A stretch of 64,000 nucleotides of DNA from an uncultured bacterium (GCA_903832855.1 CAILDB010000017.1:4992-68991), one strand, 5' to 3'; positions 28,627-52,770 are shown, counted from the stretch's first letter. Notes: generated from the sequence alone by a model not told the origin. Made by a program: numbers and translations.

Positions 28627-28695
28627 TCTGTCATTCCTGCGAAGGCAAGAATCCAGAGAATCGGGGATGGATCCCGGCCTGCGCCGGGATGACAG
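28627..28695. repeat. two tandem hairpin repeat units
   Basis: tctgtcattcctgcgaaggcaagaatccagag + gatggatcccggcctgcgccgggatgacag. Confidence 0.7.
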
Positions 28696-36188: not shown

Positions 36189-36668
36189 TCATTTCAATCC
36201 TGCACAACCAGAAGCCGGGGTCAAACCTTTGGCTCTAGCTTCTTCTACAGTATTTAAATAAACTTTGTTCTCTTCTTTTATACGAGCGACACCAGAACAC
36301 CAAGTGTAATAATATTTTGTACCAGATTTTGAAGCAACGATACTTCCCTTCTCTGTCACAGTAGTTTGGGATGCTTGAGTCGAAGCAGACTGGATTCCCG
36401 TATTCACGGGAATGACAGATGTGGAGGAAGTTGGATCAATGCCGTTCCACTTATAATATTCCTCCGTCTTTGTCACCGTGATTGGCTCTTTTTGCTTTTC
36501 ATAAGTTGAAAGTCTGCCTAGTGCAAAGGCCAAAGTAGCGGTAAGTAAAAAAACTGCCAAAATAAAAACAACTTCAGGCATTTTGTTCATATCAAAATAG
36601 CTTTTTGCCCTATCAACAAAGTATTTCTTTTGCCACTTGATTTTTTCTTTTAAATCGTTTATACTCAT
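36189..36668 (-). CDS. membrane-anchored protein with a C-terminal domain weakly resembling the Ada N-terminal Zn-binding fold; carries an in-frame hairpin-repeat insertion
   Basis: TM near the N-terminus; C-terminal YYYTWCSGVARIKEENKVYLNTVEEARAKGLTPASGC vs Ada CRPSCRARHALRENVSFYANASEALAAGFRPCKRC; repeat-encoded SVIPVNTGIQ. Confidence 0.45.
   Translation of the reverse strand: MSINDLKEKIKWQKKYFVDRAKSYFDMNKMPEVVFILAVFLLTATLAFALGRLSTYEKQKEPITVTKTEEYYKWNGIDPTSSTSVIPVNTGIQSASTQASQTTVTEKGSIVASKSGTKYYYTWCSGVARIKEENKVYLNTVEEARAKGLTPASGCAGLK
36389..36417. repeat. hairpin repeat unit inside the 36189..36668 CDS
   Basis: ctggattcccgtattcacgggaatgacag; translated in frame as SVIPVNTGIQ on the minus strand. 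Confidence 0.7.
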
Positions 36669-37502: not shown

Positions 37503-37592
37503 TCATAAATAATAGCTTTAAATAGGCCTGAAATATAGCTTGACAAAAAATATATCATTTGTTATGATAGTAAATAGAAGAGGAGGTGGAAA

Positions 37593-37778
37593 ATGAAAGA
37601 ACCATTCTTTAGTATGTCGTTGCTGTTAGCCGTGTTGGCTGGGATTACATGGGATGCCCATTTAATGAAAACTAGCCTTTCAGGTATTGCAATCACATCT
37701 GGGTTGGTTGCGATAATAACAGCCATCGTTTCTGCAACACTCAAAATTTGCGAAGCGATCAGAGAATCCAAAAAGTAG
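37593..37778 (+). CDS. hypothetical small membrane protein (61 aa)
   Basis: AGGAGGTGG RBS 5 nt upstream; hydrophobic; strong terminator immediately after. Confidence 0.5.
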   Translation: MKEPFFSMSLLLAVLAGITWDAHLMKTSLSGIAITSGLVAIITAIVSATLKICEAIRESKK

Positions 37779-37787
37779 TTCAGAGCC

Positions 37788-37822
37788 CAGCCCCGCGTGT
37801 CCGCACGCGGGGCTATTTCTTT
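37788..37822 (+). terminator. rho-independent terminator (gccccgcgtg tccg cacgcggggc + tatttctttg)
   Basis: 10-bp GC stem with a U-rich tail. Confidence 0.6.
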
Positions 37823-37828
37823 GTCCTC

Positions 37829-37896
37829 TCTGTCATTCCGTTGAAGAACGGAATCCAAAGAATCAGGGATGGATCCCGGCCTACGCCGGGATGACA
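37829..37896. repeat. two tandem hairpin units
   Basis: tctgtcattccgttgaagaacggaatccaaag + gatggatcccggcctacgccgggatgacat. Confidence 0.7.
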
Positions 37897-37906
37897 TTCA
37901 GAAATG

Positions 37907-39610: not shown

Positions 39611-42600
39611 TTATACCAATAATTTATCTTTTTTACCACGACGAATAGTAAAAATAAATATAAGATAAATGAGTGCAAGAAAGATTCCGCCGAGCAAAAT
39701 CGTCTGAAAATTAAGCAACCCTAGCAAGCTTGTCTTCGCTTTGAGTTCAATATTGATAAACACACCTTTACCTTCATCCACTTTAAATGGAGCGCCCACA
39801 TAATCAGAGTATGAGTTTGAAATAACTTTGAGCTTGTATGTGCCGACTGGAACAAGGAAAGCATATCTTCCCGTCACATCTGTCGTCTGTGGATTTTGTT
39901 GTCTAAAGTCACTTGACGGCCAGAGTTCATAAGCATTTGTCGCAGGATTTAACCAATCAATAGAAACCAAAGCATTGCTAATGCGTGTCTCCTCTCCATT
40001 ATTTATTTTGTAAACATACCCCTCCGGATCCACAACCACCACCATACTGATTGTTTTTGGTGCAATGTTTGCTTTGTAATTTATAATAGTCCTAAGTTCA
40101 TATGTTCCCAGAGCAAGAGGTGATGCAACTTCCGCAGTCCAAACACCATTTCCGGAATCAATATAATTAAATTTATTTAAAACGAGATCGGTTTGGCTGG
40201 TTGGATAACTACCAACTGTTGTGCCAGAAATTGTCGGGTTATTTTCCATTGCAAAGGCAACGGAAGCGGTCTGAGAAAGACTGGATTGCTTCGCCTTGCT
40301 CGCAATGACAGAAGAAGAAACAGAAGAGACAGAACTGGATTTAAATATCATATAACCCTGCACCGTGCTTGCCTTCCCTTCTGGCTTCACAACAAATTTA
40401 AGTGGCTGACCCTGAATAGTATTGAGAGTTTGTAGAGCAAGCCCAGCGTCTGTAACTGGTAATCCAACAGTATTCACACTCTTTAAATTAATTCCTGCAT
40501 TTGCAATTGATAATTTGACACCCAAATCAATACTTCCATCTGCTGTCTGTGCAAAAATCACATCCGTCGGTATTTGATTAATTTGTTTTTGTGAAAAGTT
40601 TGTCACTGCCACACTTTGTCCTTTTTGCAAACCGGCTATTTCAGAAAGTCCCGGCAATGAAATATTTCCTACGCCACTAAGTTGCGAAACATCACTCATT
40701 TTAGTAATGCCAATTTTTTGTAAAGTTGTAGCAACCACTGGAAATTTATTTACAATGTTTTGAAAATCACTTGGCAGACCTTCAAAAACAAAATTATTTA
40801 TATTATTTGCTATAACTGTCGGCCATTTATTCTGAAATGCAACAGGAGTAACTTGTGGGACAGATTGTGTGATAGGAGGATATGTTACATTCTCATCTTG
40901 ACCTTGTGGTATGACATTTGTAATAATTTTGGTTATTGTGTCTGTTATTGTATTTGTCACTTGTCCTGTCACAGCTTTCGTATTATCTATAACTTCAGTA
41001 ATAAGTGGCACAGCATTTAAAGTAATATTTTGTGAATAAGCAGGAGTCGCTACACCAGAAGGTGAAAGAAATTTTGTGTAAATTGTGTAATTTGCATCAG
41101 GGCAAACAGATTGTCCTTGGCAAAGATTATATTGATAAGTAGAGGTGACATATGGGATGGTCGTAATGTTTGAAAAGTCAGGATTTGTGGACACCACAAC
41201 TGCAGAAGCAGTCCCATATGGGTTTGCAGAGAATTGCAAATTAACCACTCTTTGATCTGTTGAGCCAGCTCCGTTATTTATTGAAAAGGAATATGTTGAA
41301 GTAGCGACTGGTGTAGATGAACCACCTCCCTTACTAACACTGCCATGATGAACGGCTGGAATAGTATATGTCAAATGTGTCGCAGTTCCTGAAGTATCTT
41401 TATTTCCATAAGCATCTTCACAGGCCAAATAAATATTCTTTGTTCCGGCACCTCCAAGGTCAGGTGATGTGCAAGAAATCAAAATGCTATCAGTTACAGA
41501 ACAGCTCGTGTCCCCTGACATCCCGTCATATGATTTTGCTGTAGCACTAGGCGAATATGCCAAACGACAATCCCCTGCTTCACTTAGTGTAAATGTAACA
41601 ACTTGATTATTTGAAATTCTTGAACCATCTACTGGAAGAATATTTGAAATAGTTGGCGCAACAGTTGACCATGTTAGATTGAAAGTGCTTGAAGCAGAGT
41701 TGCTAGCGAGATCAGTAGTAGTGAGAGCAATAACATATGCTCCGTCATCAGTGCCGGCTGATATTGTGGTACTTACGGCAGTGGCTGAACCAAAATTAAT
41801 TGTTCCTGGGCCAGAAACTTTTGACCACAAGTAACTTGCAATACCACTTCCACCATCAGTCGCAGAACCTGTTTGTGTAAATGTCGCTTTCTTGGACTGG
41901 TCTGCACCGGCACTTACAGAAGGCGCCGTCGTATCCCAAGTCAAATTAAATGTGCTTGAAGCGGAATTGCCGGCGAGATCTGTAGCTGTAAGAGAGATGA
42001 GATATGCTCCATCTTGATTTGCTGAAATATTTACGGTCGGCAAAGTTGTGGAACTAAAACTAACTGCTCCCGGTCCAGAAAGTTTGGACCACAAATAGCT
42101 TGCTACTTCGGAAGTAATGTCCGTAGCGGAACCTGTCTGAGAAAATAGTGCATTTTTGACCTTGTCTGCTCCTGCACTGACACTTGGCACGGTATTATCT
42201 ACAGTCACTGTAATAATAGACGAGGTCGCCTGATTTCCTGTACCATCTCGTGCGACAGCAGTGATCTCGTGATTTCCATCGTCAAGAGATGTGGTATCTA
42301 AAGTCGTAGTGTAAGGCGCAATTAGATCTTCTCCACCGATATTTGTACTCCCATCCAGTTTAAATTGAACTCCAGAAACAGATACATCATCAACGGCATT
42401 TGCCGAAACAGTCACAGAATTTCCTCTGACTTTTGCATTATTAGCCGGAGCTGTTACGGAAACCGTTGGAGCTGTAATATCTGCTTGCACAGTGAAAGAT
42501 ATTGTAAATTCGTCACTATTGACATTGCCCACTGCATCACTGCACTTGACATAATATAGATAGGAACCGCCGTTTGAAAGTTCGGAAATAATTGAAGAGT

Positions 42601-45600
42601 GCGTCGTTGTGGCTGTTGTGGTACTAAATAATGTCATACTTGCATATGAAATATTTGTAGCAGAATATTTACAAGTTGCTGGTTCATTTGTAGTCAAAGA
42701 TATCGTGGTTGAAGAAGTATTTAATGCAAGTGTTCCACCTGGTGCTCCACCCGAGCGAACCGGCGGGGAAATATCAATGAGCATAGAAGCAGAGCAAGAA
42801 GAAGTGGCTTGATTGGTTGCCGTATCAATACTTACAATTTTGTATGAATATGTGAGAGCGTCATTTCCGGTAAAATCTCTCGTCTGCAAAGAGTTTGACG
42901 CGAGGTCAATCATACTACCAGATATAGTGTCGCAAGTAGCACCCGTGTAAAATAGAATTTTTTGGTCGGCTAAGTCACCCGAATTGGACTTCGTCCACGA
43001 AGCAGTAACCGCAGTAGTACTAGCTGGAGATGTTTGGGACCAAACAAGAGATGTCGCAGTATTTGGAGCAGTCGTATCCAAAATAAAGTTACCCATACTT
43101 GTCCAAGATGAAGTGGCGACGCCATCATTGTTTTGAGCACACCAATAATATGTGGCATCACTTCCGATAGATGAGCTAGGTGTCCAAGTAGTAGTGGCGT
43201 TGTTAGAAGCAGTTTCTGCAGATGTACCACTATCTACAACCGTGCCACCTGTACAATTTACTGCACTTGATGCAATTCTATAATTAGTAGTACCTACATC
43301 AGCAGTATCTGGGTCAGAATAAATGGCTGATAAAGTGGGCGTGGTGTCTGTGGTATATGAAGCGGTCGTAGGCGAAACCAAAGTCGGAGCATTTGGTGCA
43401 GTGTTAAAATTCCAGTTTGTGTTATTGCCTCCGTTTGTGGAATTGGTTTGGGAAATTAAAGTTCCGCCCGAGGCGTTGGAATAAGCGGCGTTAACATAGC
43501 TGGCCGAGGCAGTGCCGGCGACATTTAGATACCAAGCACTTGCCGGATTCAAAGTCAGTAAAGCTCCGCTGTGTCCCGATGCCGAGAAATTTCCGCCGAC
43601 GGTGATGGTGCTGCCGATGAAGCCGGAGGCGGTCACATTGGCGACGGTGGCGGTGCCAGTATAGTTTGTGTCTGGTGCATAAGAACCCGAAATTGTAGCC
43701 GGAAAACCTCCTGACTTCCACCAGTCGTTACCCGTTGCCACTCCCGGAACCGGAGTAATAATAAATGATAAAGTATCATTTGATACATACCAGTTATCAC
43801 TTCCCCGACGATACTCTGGAATACCATTTCTTAACCCCACATAAGTATACGTCCCTATCGCGTTAGGGTTTAGCGTTCCGCTCACCGTCACTTGGTTATA
43901 ATAAGTGCCGGAAGTATTAGCCAGTCCCGAAGCGGTAATTAAAGCGCCGTCAGAGATGGTGAGATTTCTGGCGCCTGTGGTAGTGATGTTTTTCCCGCCG
44001 GCAGAAAGTGTCCCTGCTGTTACTGCAACGCTCCCCGATGCCACCAAATTATCCTGCAAAGTCCACGCTCCACCCGTCCCATTAAATGTCAGATTATTAA
44101 ATTTAGAATTCGTCGCCCCGCTCGTAATTGTTTTTCCTGTTGCAGTTGAATTAAAAATCACCGTAGAATTATCCGCCACAAACTGCGAAGGTGCGGTGCC
44201 TGTGCCGTAGTTTAGCCAGTTACCGCCGACGGTAACAGTGGAAGTTCTTCCACCTGCCCCCGTGGCGTCCAATTTCTTGAGGGCGGTGTCAGCCCCAACG
44301 CCAATGGTAATGTTACCGCCGATGGTGAGATTATAGCCGTCGGTTTTATAACCAAGTGCTCTTCCTGCTCCACCAGAAATAAAATACATGGATTTTGTTG
44401 TATTAAGGGTAACATTACCAGTTTGAGTTAATATCCCTCCGGGGACATCCACATAGATATCACTACTATAACCATTTACGAGTGCTGGAATTGATTGTGA
44501 TGCAGTTTGTCCATAAAAATAAAGCGACGGTACAGATAGTGTAGAAGCCGCATCAAAACTTAACGGAGTTGCTCCTTTCAAATACATATTACCCGATCCA
44601 GTCAGGATACCAGAACCAATCGTTACATTTGATATTATGCAAATATGTGAAGCCAAAGTTACTGTGTTACCACTTTGTCCAACTGTAAGATTATTAAATC
44701 CGTTATCCCAATAAGTTGGATTATTCCCATACGTCAGCGTATTCGTCCCATTCAGTACTAAGCTCGCCGAGTTGTATTGCGTGGAATCCAGTGTCCCATT
44801 CGCCGTAAATGTCCCATTGCCATTGACGGTGATGGTAGCGGTGCTGGCATTGAAGCGTGAAGTGATAGATGACTGGTCAAAGTTGCCCGATGATAATGTA
44901 ACTTTTGATGCACCTGTTGCCGTTACCACTCCGCCTGCCCCGACTGTCAGTCCTGCGGTAGTCCATCCAGTGTTCCCTGAAATGCCGATAGTGGTAGTGG
45001 CTCCGGTGACAGTAGAAGAACCAGTAACTGTGAGGTCGTTTGTTCCTATTGCAAATGTTCCACCTGAGACCGAGAGATTTCCTCCGACAGATATTGCAGT
45101 CGAGTTTGTAAACGAACCGCCATCTTGAGTGTAATTACCGGAAAGTGTAAATGTTCCGCCAGAAATTGTGCTGTGATTGATAACACTGCCAGTAAATGTT
45201 CCGCCAGAAATAGTGCCGTTATTTGTAACAGTCCCCGCAGAGCAAGTGCCAGATGACGGATAAGTGGCTAAACTGGCCGGGATTTCCGCTGTATAACTGG
45301 CGCTTCCGCAAGGATAACTGCCTGTCCAGTTGGCTCTGTTGGTCAAAACGCCATCTGCTGAACCGTTCCATGTACCATTGCCATCACCAAGTGTCTGCCC
45401 TTCCGAGCCAGCGCCGTTGTTGTAAAGAGTTAAAACATCATCAGCACTTAGGGCGGTGTTGTATATACGGACATCGTCAATGGAGCCAGTGAACCGATAC
45501 AAATTTTTACCTCCAACATATAAATTAGAATTTGAAATCATTTGGCTACTTGGCTGTGCAGCAGTAGCCGTTCCAGAAGGAGTGCCATCAATATAGAACC

Positions 45601-48600
45601 TCATCATATCCGCGTTTGTAGTCCCATTCCACGCAACTGTTATTAGATGCCATCCAGTAGATGTGATTGAATCGCTTGAGAAGTTGTCAATGCTACCGAA
45701 CACACCAGCATTAAATCCAAAGTATATTTTATTATTAGACCATAATCCAAAATCAAAATCGGATTCACCATTATACGTGGCCTCAGCTTTTGATAAGACA
45801 GCACCTAAATGACCCAAGCTTGCAGGATTAACCCAAACTGATAAAGTTAATGCCTTTCCAATCATATTGAGGGAATCCGAGTTTGCCACCACAACCTTAT
45901 CCCCCGTCCCATTAAAACTCATCGCCTTGCCTATTTTCGCAGTAGCCAAAAGGTCTGTGTTTCGTTGAGCTGTTCCTGTGTGTCCGCCAATGCTGTCTGC
46001 CACAGTCGTATTTGTTGAATCATCATTCATCTTGTAATGAGCCACAAGACCAGTTCCCAAAGCCCCTGCTTCACTTTCTGTCCCTGCTCCACTGGCGTAA
46101 AGTGCGTCAATAGCTGTTTGGTCTAAGGCGGTGTTGTAGATACGGACATCATCGATGGAGCCGGGGAAATAATCACCACCAGGGTTTGTTGCACGACCAA
46201 TGGTAAAATTCGCGGCATTAACAATATTCCCGGCAGTATCTACGACTGTGCCACTGCTTATCCCATTAATATAAAACTTGTATAATCCTCCAGTTCTAAC
46301 AAGCGTCACATAATTCCAAGCATTTTTAGTGACCACACTCGTACTATAGCCATAAGGGTTGAAAGTTCCATCATAAGTTTCTACATACAATTGGTTTCCT
46401 CCTCCTGCATTTATATAAGCGAATATGTATCCTGTACCGCCTGATGTAGAAATAATTGCTCTTTTGTATACATCTGCATCAACACTAGGTTTAATCCAAG
46501 CCGATAAAGAAAAATCCCCTGTCCCAAATTGCAAAGAAGAAGGATTCCCAGCATCCACATAATCACTCGTCCCATTAAAACTCAAAGCACTGCCGATTTT
46601 TGAGGTAGTCATAATAGAAGTGTTTGTCGCCGATGTTCCTGTATTTGAACCAACGCTATCTGCAACAACAAGCGAAGCTGCGTCATCATTCATTGTGTAA
46701 TGAGCCACAAGACCGCTCCCCAAATTCGCCGGAGTTAAATAGCGGACAATCACGATACCGGAACCGCCGTTTCCGCCAGGAAAACCATTCCACATTCCGC
46801 CGCCGCCGCCGCCCGTGTTGGGAGTGCCAGCCGTCCCGCCATAATCTCCTCCTGCTCCGCCCCCGCCGAGTCCTCCGCTACCGGGAGTCGTTTGCCCTGC
46901 ACCGCCGCCACCGCCTCCGTATACGGCAGATATGCCGGACAATTGATTGGACATCCCTGCTCCGCCGTTGCCACCGACTTGGGACGTGCTTGCAGTATCT
47001 CCGTTGGTAGATGCCCCACCACCGCCGCCGCCTTTCTGTGCATAATTGTTGTTTCCGCCAGCAAAACCCTGCCCATTTGTTGCACTGCCACCAACCGTGT
47101 TGCCGCCCCACGACCCACCAGCTCCACCACCCGAACCTCCTGGAAATCCGTTACCATTCTTTCCACCCGCACCACCCCCAAAGGCAGTAAGACCCGCAAA
47201 AACAGAGTTGGAACCGTCGCTCGCGTCTACGGGACTACTTAGCCAGCCCCTTCCCCCTGCGCCGACAATAACTGGATATTCTCCCGTCACCGCCAAACTG
47301 CCTGTCAGTACCCCGCCTCCACCACCGCCTCCTACACTACCTCCACCGCCACCCGCCACCACCAACACATCAGCAGAAGTAACTCCTGTTGGCAGAGTTA
47401 ATGTTGTAGTTCCAACAGTTGTATATGTACAAACAGTGTAAAGCGGGTCGTCGGGCGCGGTAGCGCAAACCGGGTCAACAATATAGTCAATGTCTACGTT
47501 GCCTGAGATTTTTAAATCAAAAACATCTGTGGGAGTTTGTAAATTTTGTAAAAGTATTCGGTATTTGCCGTCTTCAGAAATATTTTCAAAAGTTGGATTT
47601 GTGCCGTCGGAAACTGTTTCCAGCATTTGACCTTGGGTTTGATTTCCATCTTCATCGGTATAAACAGGATAAACCTCAACACTTGCTGATTGACCATTAT
47701 TTGTTGATTTTGCGTAAACCGTAATATCTTTTGTCTCATCCAAAATCTTTTGGAAAGTAACACGAACATAGTTTCCATTTGGTACAGTGGCATAATCTTT
47801 GTCTTGTGTTGCAACTATGTCATAAATATCATTAATAATTTCTTTGTTTTGGTCTAACTCAAAGGCTTTTGAAATAAAGATAATTTCAAAAGTTTGTGTT
47901 GAGAGGTGCGGGACAGTCCATTCTACATAGTCCAGTTTGCCATTGCTGTTGAGGTCATAGGCGTGGAATGTAACATTCTGGTCGCCATTATTTGTCCATT
48001 TAATTTTGATTTTTGATTCTTGACCTACTTTGTAAATTTCGGGGATGTTGGTAAAGGCGAGGACATTGGTGAGGTGCTCGGGTCCCGAGGTTGCCGAGGG
48101 ACCAGCTATTTCTGGTGCAGAAACCTGAACTATTTTTCCTGTGTCTGTGTTTGCTTCTGCAATAGTTGGAGCTGGGGTTTCGTATGATACAAGGACGGTG
48201 GAAGATGAAACGGATTCGGAAGGAGTTGAAGAGGACTGGATTGCTTCGCTTGTGCTCGCAATGACAGAAGAAGAAACAGAGGAAGTCGAAGAGGGATGGA
48301 TCCCGACCTCCGTCGGGATGACAGAATCAGAAGAGGAAGCAGAGGAAGTCCCCGCTCCCGTATTGTCATTCCGTTGAAGAACGGAATCCATCCCCGATTC
48401 CTGTGATGATGTTGCAGATGAAGTAGAAACAAATGAAGAGATATCGAGATTTAGAATTGGGAGTGATGTGGCCTGCCCCGTTAGAAGTAGGCTACTTGTA
48501 GCCGTTAGTTCTAATGGGGTGGAGGAAAATTGATCTGTAGAAGAAGATGGGGAGGACTGGATTCCTGCCTCCGCAGGAATGACAGAGGAGTCCTTGTCCT

Positions 48601-49270
48601 TCTTTTCTGTCTTGTCTGCTTTTTCTACTTTATCTTTTTTGTTTGAATCCTTTGATAAAGTGTCGGAGGACTGGATTGCTTCGTCTTCACTCGCAATGAC
48701 GGAAGAGTCGGGTATCTGCGTACTGAGGTCTATGATGACAGTATCGGGAGCTTGGTCACCTGAAAGTGCTTCGTCAACAGTTGCAAACATTTTTCCCATT
48801 TTTGAAAAGATATTTTGAAAGAAAGCAAAAAAACCTTTTGCATTTTTTTGCTTGATTGATTTTGCAAGTGCAAGAGATGCTGATGAGCTGGCTCTCTGAC
48901 TCGCGAGTTCTGATAATTTTATTCTGTCTGCGTTTGTGAGATTCCCCGACTTGGACATGGCATGTCCAAGTGCAGTGGTTGTGGAAATTTTTACATTATC
49001 TGCAACTTTCGGAATTACTAAAAGATGCTGATTTGAATTTATGCTAACTGTCTTTACCCATTTTATTGGCTCTCCGGGGACTGACGGAAGCTGACTTGTA
49101 ATAGTGCCTTTGACGAGAGCAACATTATTATCTTGAGAATTATTTGAAAGGCTTGAAAAATCAGATATCTTGTAGACAGCAAAAATCAAAGCCACCAATA
49201 CCACAGCGACACCCAAAACCACTAGAGTTTTTTTGAGACCAGATTTTTTATAAATTTCCTCTTGCTCCAT
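39611..49270 (-). CDS. giant (3219 aa) cell-surface protein
   Basis: Single 9.66-kb ORF with TM anchors at both ends. In N-to-C order: Ser-rich linker carrying hairpin-repeat insertions; Gly-rich domain; two laminin-G/ConA-like domains (DDVRIYNTAL x2); beta-helix-like T/S/G/N-rich region; Ig-like domains; two tandem PKD domains (SAGADQ...SYLWSK.SGPG); CarboxypepD_reg-like domain. Confidence 0.85.
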   Translation of the reverse strand: MEQEEIYKKSGLKKTLVVLGVAVVLVALIFAVYKISDFSSLSNNSQDNNVALVKGTITSQLPSVPGEPIKWVKTVSINSNQHLLVIPKVADNVKISTTTALGHAMSKSGNLTNADRIKLSELASQRASSSASLALAKSIKQKNAKGFFAFFQNIFSKMGKMFATVDEALSGDQAPDTVIIDLSTQIPDSSVIASEDEAIQSSDTLSKDSNKKDKVEKADKTEKKDKDSSVIPAEAGIQSSPSSSTDQFSSTPLELTATSSLLLTGQATSLPILNLDISSFVSTSSATSSQESGMDSVLQRNDNTGAGTSSASSSDSVIPTEVGIHPSSTSSVSSSVIASTSEAIQSSSTPSESVSSSTVLVSYETPAPTIAEANTDTGKIVQVSAPEIAGPSATSGPEHLTNVLAFTNIPEIYKVGQESKIKIKWTNNGDQNVTFHAYDLNSNGKLDYVEWTVPHLSTQTFEIIFISKAFELDQNKEIINDIYDIVATQDKDYATVPNGNYVRVTFQKILDETKDITVYAKSTNNGQSASVEVYPVYTDEDGNQTQGQMLETVSDGTNPTFENISEDGKYRILLQNLQTPTDVFDLKISGNVDIDYIVDPVCATAPDDPLYTVCTYTTVGTTTLTLPTGVTSADVLVVAGGGGGSVGGGGGGGVLTGSLAVTGEYPVIVGAGGRGWLSSPVDASDGSNSVFAGLTAFGGGAGGKNGNGFPGGSGGGAGGSWGGNTVGGSATNGQGFAGGNNNYAQKGGGGGGASTNGDTASTSQVGGNGGAGMSNQLSGISAVYGGGGGGAGQTTPGSGGLGGGGAGGDYGGTAGTPNTGGGGGGMWNGFPGGNGGSGIVIVRYLTPANLGSGLVAHYTMNDDAASLVVADSVGSNTGTSATNTSIMTTSKIGSALSFNGTSDYVDAGNPSSLQFGTGDFSLSAWIKPSVDADVYKRAIISTSGGTGYIFAYINAGGGNQLYVETYDGTFNPYGYSTSVVTKNAWNYVTLVRTGGLYKFYINGISSGTVVDTAGNIVNAANFTIGRATNPGGDYFPGSIDDVRIYNTALDQTAIDALYASGAGTESEAGALGTGLVAHYKMNDDSTNTTVADSIGGHTGTAQRNTDLLATAKIGKAMSFNGTGDKVVVANSDSLNMIGKALTLSVWVNPASLGHLGAVLSKAEATYNGESDFDFGLWSNNKIYFGFNAGVFGSIDNFSSDSITSTGWHLITVAWNGTTNADMMRFYIDGTPSGTATAAQPSSQMISNSNLYVGGKNLYRFTGSIDDVRIYNTALSADDVLTLYNNGAGSEGQTLGDGNGTWNGSADGVLTNRANWTGSYPCGSASYTAEIPASLATYPSSGTCSAGTVTNNGTISGGTFTGSVINHSTISGGTFTLSGNYTQDGGSFTNSTAISVGGNLSVSGGTFAIGTNDLTVTGSSTVTGATTTIGISGNTGWTTAGLTVGAGGVVTATGASKVTLSSGNFDQSSITSRFNASTATITVNGNGTFTANGTLDSTQYNSASLVLNGTNTLTYGNNPTYWDNGFNNLTVGQSGNTVTLASHICIISNVTIGSGILTGSGNMYLKGATPLSFDAASTLSVPSLYFYGQTASQSIPALVNGYSSDIYVDVPGGILTQTGNVTLNTTKSMYFISGGAGRALGYKTDGYNLTIGGNITIGVGADTALKKLDATGAGGRTSTVTVGGNWLNYGTGTAPSQFVADNSTVIFNSTATGKTITSGATNSKFNNLTFNGTGGAWTLQDNLVASGSVAVTAGTLSAGGKNITTTGARNLTISDGALITASGLANTSGTYYNQVTVSGTLNPNAIGTYTYVGLRNGIPEYRRGSDNWYVSNDTLSFIITPVPGVATGNDWWKSGGFPATISGSYAPDTNYTGTATVANVTASGFIGSTITVGGNFSASGHSGALLTLNPASAWYLNVAGTASASYVNAAYSNASGGTLISQTNSTNGGNNTNWNFNTAPNAPTLVSPTTASYTTDTTPTLSAIYSDPDTADVGTTNYRIASSAVNCTGGTVVDSGTSAETASNNATTTWTPSSSIGSDATYYWCAQNNDGVATSSWTSMGNFILDTTAPNTATSLVWSQTSPASTTAVTASWTKSNSGDLADQKILFYTGATCDTISGSMIDLASNSLQTRDFTGNDALTYSYKIVSIDTATNQATSSCSASMLIDISPPVRSGGAPGGTLALNTSSTTISLTTNEPATCKYSATNISYASMTLFSTTTATTTHSSIISELSNGGSYLYYVKCSDAVGNVNSDEFTISFTVQADITAPTVSVTAPANNAKVRGNSVTVSANAVDDVSVSGVQFKLDGSTNIGGEDLIAPYTTTLDTTSLDDGNHEITAVARDGTGNQATSSIITVTVDNTVPSVSAGADKVKNALFSQTGSATDITSEVASYLWSKLSGPGAVSFSSTTLPTVNISANQDGAYLISLTATDLAGNSASSTFNLTWDTTAPSVSAGADQSKKATFTQTGSATDGGSGIASYLWSKVSGPGTINFGSATAVSTTISAGTDDGAYVIALTTTDLASNSASSTFNLTWSTVAPTISNILPVDGSRISNNQVVTFTLSEAGDCRLAYSPSATAKSYDGMSGDTSCSVTDSILISCTSPDLGGAGTKNIYLACEDAYGNKDTSGTATHLTYTIPAVHHGSVSKGGGSSTPVATSTYSFSINNGAGSTDQRVVNLQFSANPYGTASAVVVSTNPDFSNITTIPYVTSTYQYNLCQGQSVCPDANYTIYTKFLSPSGVATPAYSQNITLNAVPLITEVIDNTKAVTGQVTNTITDTITKIITNVIPQGQDENVTYPPITQSVPQVTPVAFQNKWPTVIANNINNFVFEGLPSDFQNIVNKFPVVATTLQKIGITKMSDVSQLSGVGNISLPGLSEIAGLQKGQSVAVTNFSQKQINQIPTDVIFAQTADGSIDLGVKLSIANAGINLKSVNTVGLPVTDAGLALQTLNTIQGQPLKFVVKPEGKASTVQGYMIFKSSSVSSVSSSVIASKAKQSSLSQTASVAFAMENNPTISGTTVGSYPTSQTDLVLNKFNYIDSGNGVWTAEVASPLALGTYELRTIINYKANIAPKTISMVVVVDPEGYVYKINNGEETRISNALVSIDWLNPATNAYELWPSSDFRQQNPQTTDVTGRYAFLVPVGTYKLKVISNSYSDYVGAPFKVDEGKGVFINIELKAKTSLLGLLNFQTILLGGIFLALIYLIFIFTIRRGKKDKLLV
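40281..40312. repeat. hairpin repeat unit inside the giant gene (C-terminal region)
   Basis: ctggattgcttcgccttgctcgcaatgacag, giving SVIASKAKQS in frame. Confidence 0.7.
48236..48395. repeat. array of four hairpin units inside the giant gene N-terminal linker
   Basis: Encodes SVIASTSEAIQ, SVIPTEVGIH and, in inverse orientation, MDSVLQRND, all in frame. Confidence 0.7.
48557..48585. repeat. hairpin unit inside the giant gene
   Basis: ctggattcctgcctccgcaggaatgacag, giving SVIPAEAGIQ. Confidence 0.7.
48671..48700. repeat. hairpin unit inside the giant gene
   Basis: ctggattgcttcgtcttcactcgcaatgac, giving SVIASEDEAIQ. Confidence 0.7.
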
Positions 49271-50978: not shown

Positions 50979-51233
50979 ATGCAATATGTCTATGTGTTAC
51001 AAAGTAAAATGGATGGTGGTTTATACACTGGTTGCACGAATAACTTGAAAAGTAGGTTCATATTGCATAATGCGAAAAAAGTTGATTCTACTGCAAAACG
51101 AACTCCATTTGTGCTAATATACTATGAAGCATACATAAATAGTCACGATGCATATAACCGCGAGAAGTATATGAAGACACAATATGGCAAGAATTATTTG
51201 AAAAAGGTTTTGTCCAACTTTTTTAATCAGTAA
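50979..51233 (+). CDS. GIY-YIG nuclease-family small protein
   Basis: YVYVLQSKMDGGLYTGCTNNLKSRFILHN is the GIY-YIG core; 84 aa. Confidence 0.7.
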   Translation: MQYVYVLQSKMDGGLYTGCTNNLKSRFILHNAKKVDSTAKRTPFVLIYYEAYINSHDAYNREKYMKTQYGKNYLKKVLSNFFNQ

Positions 51234-51249: not shown

Positions 51250-52770
51250 ATGTTTAACTTTCTCAAATCTAAAAAAGTTGTCTTTCTCTATAATACTCTT
51301 TCCAGAAAAAAAGAGGTTTTTAGACCTATTAAAAAAGGTCAGGTGAAATTTTATCAATGTGGACCGACAGTTTATTGGACTCAACATATTGGCAACATGC
51401 GTGCATTTGTTTTGTCTGATTTTATGCGTCGTTCTCTTTCATATCTTGGATACAAAGTAACTTTTATAAGAAATTATACTGATGTCGGACATCTGACTTC
51501 CGATAGTGATGTGGGCGAAGACAAAATGGAAAAAGCCGTAAAAAGAGAAGGTGGAAGTCCAAAGGAAATTGCCGATAAATACACAAAGATTTTTGAAAGT
51601 GATACAAATGATTTGAATATTTTAGAGCCGGATTTCAAACCTCGTGCTACAGAATTTGTTGCAGATATTATTGATTCAGTTGGAATTTTAATTAAAAAAG
51701 GATTCGCCTACCCTACCGATCTTGCAATTTATTTTGATATTTCAAAAGCAAAAGATTACACCAAACTTTCCGGACAAAATCTGGAAGAAAATAAAAGTGG
51801 CGCAGGAAATGCTGAAGTTGAAGATAAACAGAAAAGAAATCCTGCCGATTTTGCTCTGTGGTTTTTCAAAGCAGGAAAGCACGCAAATGCTTTGCAATTT
51901 TGGCCATCACCTTTTACTTCTTCACTTGTTAAAAACGGCGAAGGTTTCCCTGGCTGGCACATAGAATGTTCTGTAATGGTCAAAAAACTTCTTGGAAATA
52001 CGATAGATATTCATATGGGCGGAGTAGAACACATTCCTGTTCATCACACAAATGAAATAGCTCAAAGCGAAGCACTCAATGGTGTTACTTTTGTAAATTA
52101 TTGGCTACATAATGAATGGCTTATGGCAGATGGCGGAAAAATATCTAAATCAGTTGGCACAGCATTTAGTTTATCCGATTTGAAGGAAAAAAGTTTTAAT
52201 CCTCTGGTCTTGCGATATTTCTTTATGCAGGCACATTATCGTTCCAAACAAAACTTTACTTGGGAGGCACTTGAAGGTGCGAGGAACGGTTACGAACATT
52301 TGATAAATCAAATCTCTGTCATTGCGAGCAAAGCGAAGCAATCCAGTCTTCTTCTGTCATCCCGGCGCAGGCCGGGATCCATCTCCTCCTCTGTCATTGC
52401 GAGTGAAACGAAGCAATCCATCGGCCATACTGACCCCACTTTCAAAACCAAATTTTCTAAAATAATCGGTGATGACTTTGGTATTTCCCAAGCACTCGCA
52501 CTTCTTCAGGAAGTCTTGAAATCAGACATTCCAAAAGAAAATAAACTTGCGACTATTTACGATTTTGATAAAGTTCTTGGACTGGATTTACAAAAGGCCG
52601 CCGAACTTTCTGAAAATATTCCCGACGAAATCATAAAACTTGCAGAAGAAAGAAAACTCGCCCGCTCCGACAAAAACTGGTCAAAATCCGACGAACTCCG
52701 CGACAAAATAGCATCTCTTGGTTATGAAATCAAAGATTCTTCTGCTGGATACGAAATTTCTAAAAAGTAG
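51250..52770 (+). CDS. cysS: cysteinyl-tRNA synthetase (with a 39-aa repeat-derived in-frame insertion)
   Basis: YQCGPTVYWTQHIGNMR (HIGH) and KISKSVG (KMSKS); 506 aa including the SVIASKAKQSSLLLSSRRRPGSISSSVIASETKQSI insert. Confidence 0.9.
   Translation: MFNFLKSKKVVFLYNTLSRKKEVFRPIKKGQVKFYQCGPTVYWTQHIGNMRAFVLSDFMRRSLSYLGYKVTFIRNYTDVGHLTSDSDVGEDKMEKAVKREGGSPKEIADKYTKIFESDTNDLNILEPDFKPRATEFVADIIDSVGILIKKGFAYPTDLAIYFDISKAKDYTKLSGQNLEENKSGAGNAEVEDKQKRNPADFALWFFKAGKHANALQFWPSPFTSSLVKNGEGFPGWHIECSVMVKKLLGNTIDIHMGGVEHIPVHHTNEIAQSEALNGVTFVNYWLHNEWLMADGGKISKSVGTAFSLSDLKEKSFNPLVLRYFFMQAHYRSKQNFTWEALEGARNGYEHLINQISVIASKAKQSSLLLSSRRRPGSISSSVIASETKQSIGHTDPTFKTKFSKIIGDDFGISQALALLQEVLKSDIPKENKLATIYDFDKVLGLDLQKAAELSENIPDEIIKLAEERKLARSDKNWSKSDELRDKIASLGYEIKDSSAGYEISKK
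52314..52430. repeat. three tandem hairpin units inside cysS
   Basis: ctctgtcattgcgagcaaagcgaagcaatccag + tcttcttctgtcatcccggcgcaggccgggatccatc + tcctcctctgtcattgcgagtgaaacgaagcaatccatc. Confidence 0.75.

What the first reader, a model, noticed from the sequence alone, without database searches (positions are those of the whole stretch)
52314..52430. Cysteinyl-tRNA synthetase carries a 39-aa in-frame insertion made of three tandem hairpin units
Within cysS (HIGH and KISKS motifs intact) the stretch SVIASKAKQSSLLLSSRRRPGSISSSVIASETKQSI is encoded exactly by three repeat units. It lies between the catalytic core and the C-terminal helical/anticodon-binding region and lengthens the protein to 506 aa. 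An essential enzyme that tolerates a selfish-element insertion is notable, and dates the spread of the element.
Basis: seen in the sequence. Interest (0 to 1): 0.7.

Follow-up and report, generated by a model that had tools for sequence, protein, structure and literature searches.

The report
REP hairpin repeats inside cysS
A cysteinyl-tRNA synthetase gene of a small-genome (Patescibacteria-like) bacterium carries, in frame, three copies of a short palindromic repeat that is scattered through the same genome; this is real, but it is a further example of a phenomenon already described for this repeat class in other bacteria.

Summary
cysS (51250-52770, 506 aa) contains three head-to-tail repeat units at 52317-52420. 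They are translated as 36 residues (356-391), not 39. They replace 7 codons of the nearest relatives, so the net gain is 29 aa. The window holds 23 such units. Their anatomy (unpaired TGTC/CGTC tag, stem opening A-T/T-A, 4-nt loop, CCA tail, covarying stems) matches the CGTC-tagged REP superfamily of Di Nocera et al. 2013 (PMC3733652). That paper already lists intragenic copies, including in glycyl- and isoleucyl-tRNA synthetase genes, and equates two Rickettsia RPE families with CGTC repeats. The insert sits in the turn between the helix that follows the catalytic-domain match and the next helix: an ordered 9-residue turn in the insert-free relative, a longer helix plus low-confidence coil here. 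Thirteen of 120 related CysRS proteins have insertions in this loop, and three of those checked at DNA level are other palindromes. The identical 506-aa protein is recorded on 56 contigs, so it is not an artefact. Two other genes in the window also carry in-frame units. Verdict: new member of a known kind, probably a tolerated passenger. How the repeats spread is unknown.

The parts
51250..52770 (+). cysS, cysteinyl-tRNA synthetase, 506 aa, host gene of the array
   Evidence: Pfam tRNA-synt_1e 24-345, E 3e-88. PDB CysRS chains, E 6e-86. AF2 model pLDDT 86, Foldseek 1u0b_B TM 0.83. The identical protein is recorded on 56 contigs.
52315..52422 (+). Repeat-derived coding segment: 36 codons, residues 356-391. 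It replaces 7 ancestral codons, net +29 aa.
   Evidence: Codon-level comparison with L001/L002 cysS. Protein alignments A1/A2.
52317..52345 (+). REP unit 1, type A (bulged variant): TGTC tag, ATTGC/GCAAT outer stem, 2-bp inner stem, CCA tail. Read as VIASKAKQS.
   Evidence: Differs by 1 nt from the copy at 40283(-).
52355..52381 (+). REP unit 2, type B (canonical CGTC-1-like): TGTC tag, 8-bp stem ATCCCGGC/GCCGGGAT, loop GCAG, CCA tail. Read in another frame as SSRRRPGSI.
   Evidence: dG -9.7, z -4.0; 52.4 bits, second best of 16. Identical to the copy at 28669(-).
52392..52420 (+). REP unit 3, type A. Differs from unit 1 at 3 positions, including a compensatory C-G to T-A change in the inner stem. 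Read as VIASETKQS.
   Evidence: (91% identity to unit 1).
36392..36416 (-). Type B unit in frame in the 159-aa membrane protein gene 36189..36668(-). The ortholog in the relative lacks 10 aa here.
48238..48700 (-). Cluster of five units (48238, 48298, 48365, 48559, 48673) in the N-terminal Ser-rich region of the 3219-aa surface-protein ORF 39611..49270(-).
40283..40309 (-). Type A unit in frame near the C-terminus of the 3219-aa ORF, read as VIASKAKQS as in cysS.
28630..28693 (.). Example of an intergenic inverted pair of type B units with tails facing and a 14-nt spacer.
37832..37895 (.). Intergenic inverted pair of type B units, 11 nt downstream of the S41 peptidase stop. This spacer is 404 nt here and 8 nt in the relative.

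Best explanation
The segment is a head-to-tail cluster of three REP-type palindromic repeat units of the CGTC/TGTC-tagged superfamily: one canonical CGTC-1-like hairpin flanked by two bulged variants. It became embedded in cysS in this lineage. It is translated as a 36-residue Ser/Lys/Arg-rich stretch that replaces the short turn between the helix following the catalytic-domain match and the next helix. That turn is the most indel-tolerant site of Patescibacteria CysRS, and the array is stop-free with a net length that is a multiple of three, so the enzyme most likely keeps working and the array persists as a tolerated passenger.

Shown: membership of the dispersed family, hairpin covariation, absence from the nearest relative, location in the interhelical turn, recurrence of insertions at this loop, and the same allele in many assemblies.

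Inferred: that the units arrived by element mobility (probably hairpin- and single-strand-dependent, by an enzyme acting in trans, since none is known for CGTC repeats), that selection filtered for loop position, frame and orientation, and that the enzyme is active.
For: Family. The window holds 16 type B and 7 type A units, against 0 expected by chance. Type B is 99.2% paired, with 4 of 8 stem pairs changed on both sides; no shuffle out of 500 reached the observed covariation score. The type A inner helix covaries. Tag, A-T/T-A stem start, 4-nt loop and CCA tail match the published definition of CGTC repeats. The same unit pattern occurs in more than 120 loci from many phyla.

Known behaviour. 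Intragenic CGTC-1 units are already listed in glyS and ileS, read as V[IV]PAxAG as here.

Insert. 54 of 64 aligned sequences have 21 aa between the anchors where the window has 50. The relative's loci have no units. The AF2 model of the relative shows helix 338-357, an ordered 9-aa turn and helix 367-378. The window protein shows helix 338-371, then coil 372-395 (372-390 at mean pLDDT 49-61), then helix 396-407.

Permissive loop. 13 of 120 related CysRS have insertions of at least 8 aa here, against 6 at all other sites combined. Three of them, checked at DNA level, contain other GC-rich palindromes.

Other genes. A 159-aa membrane protein (+10 aa against its ortholog) and the 3219-aa ORF also carry in-frame units. 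9 of 10 intragenic units are sense, and 8 of those 9 are read in one frame.

Reality. The identical protein is recorded on 56 contigs and listed in 77 blocks of the collection. All invariant catalytic residues are retained.
Against: No empty-site allele from a close relative exists. The event, its boundaries (7 ancestral codons are missing) and its timing therefore cannot be reconstructed.

No transposase was found in the 36 window ORFs scanned, and none is known for this repeat class, so mobility is unproven.

Enzyme activity, single-copy status of cysS and distance of the insert from bound tRNA were not tested.

The two type A units are only weak hairpins energetically.

Head-to-tail clusters are described as rare or negligible for CGTC repeats.
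Confidence: 0.82

Rival explanations
1. Exapted insert. The REP-derived segment has been recruited for a function: a flexible linker or protein-interaction loop of CysRS, or RNA hairpins inside the mRNA that pause translation between domains or stabilise the message.
For: The cysS units are as intact as the intergenic ones: unit 2 scores second best of 16 and is identical to another copy. Units 1 and 3 differ by a compensatory stem change. Intragenic units show strong sense-orientation and reading-frame bias. Five intergenic units sit 6-12 nt after stop codons in sense orientation, as expected for RNA-level elements.
Against: Intactness is equally explained by recency. The frame bias can be simple purifying selection against Leu/Phe/Cys-rich translations. 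54 of 64 aligned sequences do without any insert. The insert is predicted mostly disordered. There are no variant alleles from which to measure constraint.
Confidence: 0.1
2. Local origin. The array was not delivered as three units. One unit (or an A-B pair) was inserted and then amplified by slippage or unequal recombination, or the array was copied by recombination from a Ser-rich repeat array such as those in the 3219-aa ORF.
For: Units 1 and 3 are 91% identical and 75 nt apart. The same 'SSVIASKAKQSS' module occurs in the giant ORF. The B-then-A order is also found at 48298/48238.
Against: Units 1 and 3 differ at 3 of 32 positions, and each resembles a different subtype found elsewhere (GAGC..GCG and GAGT..ACG both occur in the giant ORF). 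The spacers differ from those of the giant-ORF array. This rival concerns the route only and does not change what the segment is.
Confidence: 0.25
3. Artefact or pseudogene. The array is an assembly chimera through short repeats, or this cysS is a decaying copy.
For: The data are metagenome-derived. The repeats are dispersed. One scaffold (L005) diverges from the window at its very end.
Against: The exact 506-aa protein is recorded on 56 contigs, up to 90 kb long, from many samples with the same neighbours. The units (about 29 nt) are far shorter than assembly k-mers. The reading frame is open on both sides of the array, and every invariant CysRS residue is kept. Synteny CorA-cysS-RecR-DnaB is as in the relatives.
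Confidence: 0.02

Closest known systems
CGTC-tagged REPs, family CGTC-1 (Di Nocera, De Gregorio & Rocco 2013, BMC Genomics 14:522, PMC3733652). The paper equates these with Neisseria dRS3 and Rickettsia RPE-6.
   Same: Unpaired CGTC/TGTC tag, 8-bp stem opening with A-T and T-A, 4-nt loop, CCA tail. Many stem subtypes. Mostly intergenic and close to gene 3' ends. Inverted dimers. Some units inside ORFs and translated (V[IV]PAxAG...), including in aminoacyl-tRNA synthetase genes. No associated transposase.
   Different: The host is a Patescibacteria-like genome; the paper reports CGTC repeats in five phyla, mostly alpha-Proteobacteria, without naming this group in the sections read. The cysS array is a head-to-tail trimer, an arrangement the paper calls negligible or rare. 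Two of its units are a bulged variant (5-bp + 2-bp stems) outside the four defined CGTC families. cysS is not among the synthetase genes listed.
Rickettsia palindromic elements (RPE; Ogata et al. 2000 and 2002, as summarised in PMC10969869 and PMC3733652)
   Same: Palindromic repeats inserted in frame into unrelated, often essential, genes. The added peptide is reported as compatible with protein fold and function. It is a small-genome organism.
   Different: The classical RPEs described there are about 150 bp with a conserved encoded peptide. The units here are about 29 nt and modular. Sequence similarity to RPEs was not tested.
GTAG-tagged REPs mobilised by RAYT tyrosine transposases (E. coli and Pseudomonas REP/BIME)
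   Same: Short extragenic palindromes with an unpaired tag, dimers and clusters, preference for gene 3' ends, occasional intragenic copies.
   Different: The tag is TGTC/CGTC, not GTAG. No RAYT-like gene was found in the window.
Lineage-specific insertions of aminoacyl-tRNA synthetases
   Same: Extra residues in a surface loop between conserved domains, with an intact catalytic core.
   Different: Here the origin of the insert is identifiable as copies of a dispersed DNA repeat. It is confined to one lineage.

Membership tests
CGTC-tagged REP superfamily (CGTC-1) | Unpaired 5' tag CGTC (variants TGTC, CCTC) | tested here: met
   TGTC in 14 of 15 type B units (one GGTC). TGTC in 6 of 7 type A units and CGTC in one. 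Definition.
CGTC-tagged REP superfamily (CGTC-1) | 8-bp stem with complementary A-T and T-A at positions 1 and 2, and a 4-nt loop | tested here: met
   Type B: 15 of 15 units, 99.2% of cells paired, A-T/T-A invariant, 4-nt loop GNAG or GAAT. The middle cysS unit meets this. The two outer cysS units (type A) keep the A-T/T-A start but have a 5-bp + 2-bp bulged stem, so they do not meet it strictly.
CGTC-tagged REP superfamily (CGTC-1) | 3-nt unpaired tail, consensus CCA | tested here: met
   CCA in all 15 type B and all 7 type A units.
CGTC-tagged REP superfamily (CGTC-1) | Multi-copy, mainly intergenic, near gene 3' ends, with inverted dimers predominant | tested here: inconclusive
   23 units in 64 kb, 13 of them intergenic. 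Five lie 6-12 nt after a stop codon, and there are two clear inverted pairs. However, 10 units are intragenic and mostly head-to-tail. The paper's head/tail naming could not be matched because its figures are not held.
CGTC-tagged REP superfamily (CGTC-1) | No dedicated transposase gene flanked by the repeats | tested here: inconclusive
   No transposase domain in the 36 window ORFs scanned with Pfam. Only 64 kb of the genome is available.
GTAG REP / RAYT system | GTAG tag and an associated RAYT gene | tested here: not met
   The tag is TGTC/CGTC. No Y1 transposase was found in the window.
Rickettsia palindromic elements (classical RPEs of about 150 bp) | About 150-bp palindromic element encoding a conserved peptide, inserted in frame | tested here: not met
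   In-frame insertion holds, but the units are about 29 nt and the array is 104 nt built from two unit types. RPE size. RPE-6 and RPE-4 are equated with CGTC-1 and CGTC-4 by PMC3733652; direct sequence comparison was not done.
MITE | Terminal inverted repeats flanking an internal sequence, with target-site duplication | tested here: not met
   Each unit is a single short hairpin. No direct duplication flanks the cysS array, and 7 ancestral codons are missing instead.
Cysteinyl-tRNA synthetase (class I) | Catalytic-domain match, HIGH-type and KMSKS-type motifs, zinc ligands, CysRS fold | tested here: met
   Pfam PF01406 at E 3e-88. HIGN 46-49 and KISKS 297-301 present. C37, C240, H265, E269 invariant; their assignment as zinc ligands is from memory of E. 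coli CysRS. Foldseek hit to 1u0b_B, TM 0.83.

The most novel reading that the evidence does not exclude
CGTC-type REPs may be currently active in this Patescibacteria lineage and adapted to being translated. When they land in genes they survive almost only in sense orientation and in one frame, giving a benign Ser-flanked 'S-V-I-(A/P)-x-x-x-(G/Q)-(I/S)-(Q/S)' module. On this reading they act as a recurrent source of linker or loop sequence in proteins of a minimal genome. The CysRS interhelical turn would then be a repeatedly hit site across Patescibacteria, where unrelated palindromes occupy the same loop in at least three other lineages. That recurrence could reflect targeting and not only tolerance.
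Probability: 0.25. Interest if true: 0.5.

Novelty: new member of a known kind. Interest (0 to 1): 0.33.

Why it matters
It extends a documented phenomenon, translated REP/RPE-type palindromes inside essential genes, to a Patescibacteria-like organism with a very compact genome. It pinpoints one interhelical turn of CysRS as the main place where such insertions survive, which is useful for annotation: odd low-complexity stretches in these aaRS genes are repeat-derived, not errors. It is also useful for choosing engineerable loops. The family here (23 units in 64 kb, none in the loci examined from the nearest relative) is a compact case for asking how CGTC repeats, which have no known transposase, spread. 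It does not change the understanding of CysRS or of REPs.

Tried and rejected
1. A protein-database search with the insert peptide failed: too short, then no candidate shared enough words.

2. Two JGI metagenome scans, one for an empty-site allele (flanks 15-45 nt apart) and one for the left flank alone, both returned 0 hits. The organism is absent from that collection, so the negative result says nothing.

3. Rfam over the whole window found no family.

4. A literature search for the unit sequence strings returned only unrelated primer hits. A search for REP together with Patescibacteria found nothing relevant.

5. I considered that the 84-aa GIY-YIG ORF next to cysS might be linked to the repeats. 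It is single-copy in the window with no unit beside it, so the idea was dropped.

6. I considered that the three units fold together into one unusually stable structure. The fold is no better than shuffles (z -0.49).

7. Assembly artefact was rejected on the evidence of 56 contigs with the identical protein.

8. I considered that the insert aligns to a conserved CysRS segment. HMMER stretches it over a longer region of the Elizabethkingia enzyme with almost no identities. The family alignment shows a clean length difference.

Full report
**1. What is in the sequence**

The ORF 51250..52770 (+) encodes a 506-aa protein. It is a genuine class I cysteinyl-tRNA synthetase.
- Pfam tRNA-synt_1e covers residues 24-345 at E 3e-88, with a weak CysS_C match at 457-497.
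- Solved CysRS chains match at E 6e-86 to 5e-74.
- An AlphaFold model (mean pLDDT 86) superposes on E. coli CysRS bound to tRNA, 1u0b_B, with TM 0.83.
- The signature motifs are HIGN (46-49) and KISKS (297-301).
- Every column that is invariant across 64 aligned sequences is kept, including C37, C240, H265 and E269. I take these four to be the zinc ligands from memory of the E. coli enzyme.

**2. The three units**

The DNA under the peptide consists of three direct units whose GTCAT cores start at 52318, 52356 and 52393. The spacings are 38 and 37 nt.
- Units 1 and 3 ('type A', GTCATTGCGAG...GAAGCAATCC) are 91% identical.
- Unit 2 ('type B', TGTCATCCCGGCGCAGGCCGGGATCC) is a perfect 8-bp hairpin with DNA dG -9.7 kcal/mol and z = -4.0 against shuffles.
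- The type A units are only weak, bulged hairpins (dG -2 to -4 kcal/mol).
- The three together fold no better than shuffles.
- GC reaches 0.50-0.55 over the array, in a window of 0.38.

**3. Size and nature of the change**

The nearest relative, P0002, is 74% identical and 477 aa long. A codon-level comparison shows that 36 codons (52315-52422) stand where it has 7 codons (AGA GAA TTG GGA GAA AAA TCT, RELGEKS). The net gain is therefore 29 aa, not 39, and the event was not a clean insertion.

Between the conserved anchors L351 and F402, 54 of 64 aligned sequences have exactly 21 residues. The window protein has 50. The insert is lineage-specific.

**4. Not an artefact**

The exact 506-aa sequence is recorded on 56 contigs up to 90 kb long and is listed in 77 blocks of the collection, always with the same neighbours. 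The cluster at 90% identity holds no variant allele.

**5. The repeat family**

A hairpin scan and a covariance model find 16 type B and 7 type A units in the 64 kb. The exact-pattern searches expect 0 by chance.

All units share three features: an unpaired (C)TCTGTC tag, a stem opening with A-T and T-A, and a CCA tail.
- Type B stems come in several subtypes (CCGGC/GCCGG, CCCGT/ACGGG, CCTGC/GCAGG, CCGTT/AACGG and others). 99.2% of cells are paired, and 4 of 8 pairs change on both sides. No shuffle out of 500 reaches the observed covariation score, and registers slid by 1-3 columns drop to 17-58% paired.
- Type A has an invariant 5-bp outer helix and a 2-bp inner helix that covaries (C-G to T-A in 3 of 7 units).
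- The type B model also detects the type A units, at E 0.004-0.09.

The relative's loci contain no convincing unit. L001 and L002 were searched with the model and gave only one marginal hit each (E 0.05); L001-L004 gave none in the hairpin scan. This holds even though gene order is conserved. One example: the spacer between the L9 and S41-peptidase genes is 8 nt in the relative and 404 nt here, where it holds a REP dimer.

**6. What the family is**

The anatomy matches the published definition of CGTC-tagged REPs (Di Nocera, De Gregorio & Rocco 2013, PMC3733652). That paper states:
[quoted passage not shown] - All CGTC elements end with tails that mostly fit CCA.

The paper equates CGTC-1 with Neisseria dRS3 and Rickettsia RPE-6. 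It reports that the repeats lie mostly just downstream of genes. It finds no dedicated transposase.

It also catalogues intragenic, translated units. These include CGTC-1 dimers in the glycyl-tRNA synthetase beta subunit and isoleucyl-tRNA synthetase of Erythrobacter litoralis, read as VVPAKAGTS... and VTPAEAGVS....

By my own estimate only a few matches would be expected by chance. Hosts include Bradyrhizobium, Chthoniobacterales/Udaeobacter, Thermomicrobiaceae, Legionella, Coxiellaceae, Clostridia, Bacteroidales, Dehalococcoidia, Saccharibacteria, Gracilibacteria and Peribacteria.

The middle cysS unit is therefore a canonical CGTC-1-type REP. The outer two are a bulged variant with the same tag, stem start and tail. 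I found no paper linking REPs with Patescibacteria in the held library.

**7. Distribution in the window**

Thirteen units are intergenic.
- Five of them sit 6-12 nt downstream of a stop codon, in sense orientation (17010, 25283, 36154, 37871, 39579).
- Two clear inverted pairs exist, at 28630/28669 and 37832/37871.

Ten units lie inside three genes.
- cysS carries 3.
- The 3219-aa surface-protein ORF 39611..49270(-) carries 6: five in its N-terminal Ser-rich region and one near the C-terminus.
- A 159-aa membrane protein (36189..36668, -) carries 1. Its ortholog in the relative lacks exactly 10 residues at that point.

Nine of the ten intragenic units are in sense orientation. Eight of those nine are read with GTC in phase 0, giving S-V-I-(A/P)... 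flanked by Ser codons supplied by the tag and tail. Only the middle cysS unit uses another frame (SSRRRPGSI). That happens because the 38 + 37 nt spacings add to 75 nt and so restore the frame.

All three sense frames and two of the three antisense frames are open. Stop codons therefore do not force the frame bias. My own binomial estimate for 8 or more of 9 in one given frame is about 0.001. Selection against the Leu/Phe/Cys-rich alternative translations is the simplest reading, and this is inference.

No transposase domain was found in the 36 ORFs scanned with Pfam.

**8. Where the insert sits in the enzyme**

In the model of the insert-free relative, helix 338-357 is followed by an ordered 9-residue turn (358-366, pLDDT above 90) and then helix 367-378.

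In the window protein the first helix is predicted to run on to residue 371. Coil follows at 372-395, with mean pLDDT of 61 for residues 371-380 and 49 for 381-390. The next helix is 396-407.

By HMMER alignment, residue 353 corresponds to E. coli residue 321 and residue 397 to E. coli 337. From my memory of the E. coli structure papers, this is the junction of the stem-contact fold and the helical-bundle domain. The domain names are confirmed by PMC4519929, but the residue boundaries are not. Distance from bound tRNA was not measured.

**9. The loop is a recurrent indel site**

In 120 Patescibacteria-type CysRS sequences, insertions of at least 8 aa fall in this loop in 13 sequences. All other sites combined have 6: four near residue 453, one near 98 and one near 223.

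DNA was fetched for three of the loop insertions. Each contains a different GC-rich palindrome.
- P0111: CCTGCCCTGCCTACC / GGCAGGCAGGGCAGG.
- P0086: two hairpins.
- P0097: CCCTCC...GGAGGG.

Palindromic inserts at this turn have therefore arisen independently more than once.

**10. Mechanism**

Shown: a cluster of dispersed REP units is embedded in frame in an interhelical turn that tolerates length change. The rest of the enzyme is fully conserved.

Inferred:
- The units arrived by whatever process spreads CGTC repeats. That process is unknown. Published ideas are mobilisation in trans by tyrosine transposases acting on single-stranded hairpins, or extinct dedicated enzymes.
- Only events that were stop-free, frame-preserving, loop-located and benignly translated survived.
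- The insert is a neutral or nearly neutral passenger.

The cysS units are as close to consensus as the intergenic ones. Unit 2 scores second best of 16 and is identical to the copy at 28669. This fits either recency or maintenance of the hairpins; I cannot separate the two.

How the A-B-A array formed is open. It could be three events, one composite event, or local amplification.

**11. Verdict**

The interpretation as a repeat-element insertion is right. The phenomenon is already documented for this very repeat superfamily, including in aminoacyl-tRNA synthetase genes, and classically for Rickettsia RPEs.

It is a new member of a known kind. What is new is the host lineage, the target gene, the head-to-tail trimer with bulged variants, the frame and orientation bias, and the recurrence of palindromic inserts at one CysRS turn. 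Interest is modest.

Noticed in passing
window 39611-49270 (-), units at 40283, 48238, 48298, 48365, 48559, 48673: A 3219-aa surface-type protein (Big, Laminin_G_3 and PKD-like domains) carries six REP units in frame. Five are read as S-V-I-(A/P)... inside Ser-rich linker sequence, so REP units contribute to its low-complexity regions.
   Followed up: partly
window 36189-36668 (-), unit 36392-36416: A 159-aa membrane-anchored protein has one type B unit in frame ('SSTSVIPVNTGIQS'). Its ortholog in the relative (L001 6318-6773) lacks exactly 10 residues there. This is a cleaner filled-versus-empty comparison than cysS.
   Followed up: yes
window 17010, 25283, 36154, 37871, 39579: Five intergenic units lie 6-12 nt downstream of a stop codon, in the same orientation as the upstream gene. 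This is the pattern expected if they act on, or are selected through, the mRNA 3' end.
   Followed up: partly
window 50979-51233 (+): An 84-aa stand-alone GIY-YIG nuclease ORF (Pfam E 5e-14) sits between corA and cysS. The relatives have no called gene in the roughly 150-nt gap there. It is single-copy in the window and has no REP beside it.
   Followed up: partly
L127 11066-11100; L128 and L129 cysS loop regions: Other Patescibacteria CysRS genes (P0111, P0086, P0097) carry unrelated GC-rich palindromes in the same interhelical loop. 13 of 120 related CysRS proteins have insertions of at least 8 aa there.
   Followed up: partly
protein P0093 (CysRS relative), after the position equivalent to window residue ~98: A 47-aa insertion with two CxxC pairs (ILSFICKECG...FNCKFCNS), which looks like a zinc ribbon, in the N-terminal half of the catalytic domain of one relative.
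   Followed up: no
window 37503-37906: The spacer between the L9 and S41-peptidase genes is 404 nt here and 8 nt in the relative. It holds a possible 61-codon hydrophobic ORF (37594-37779), a GC-rich terminator-like hairpin (37789-37815) and a REP inverted pair.
   Followed up: no
genome-scan loci, e.g. L061, L117, L123: In some unrelated genomes (a goat-gut Clostridia MAG among others) units of the same tag and tail type form regular tandem arrays with periods of about 42, 61 or 209 nt. This is unlike the scattered copies in the window.
   Followed up: no
L005 11377-11430: One public scaffold is identical to the window over 11,376 nt and then diverges for its last ~54 nt inside cysS. This is probably a scaffold-end artefact. 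It produced the truncated 461-aa database entry P0001.
   Followed up: partly
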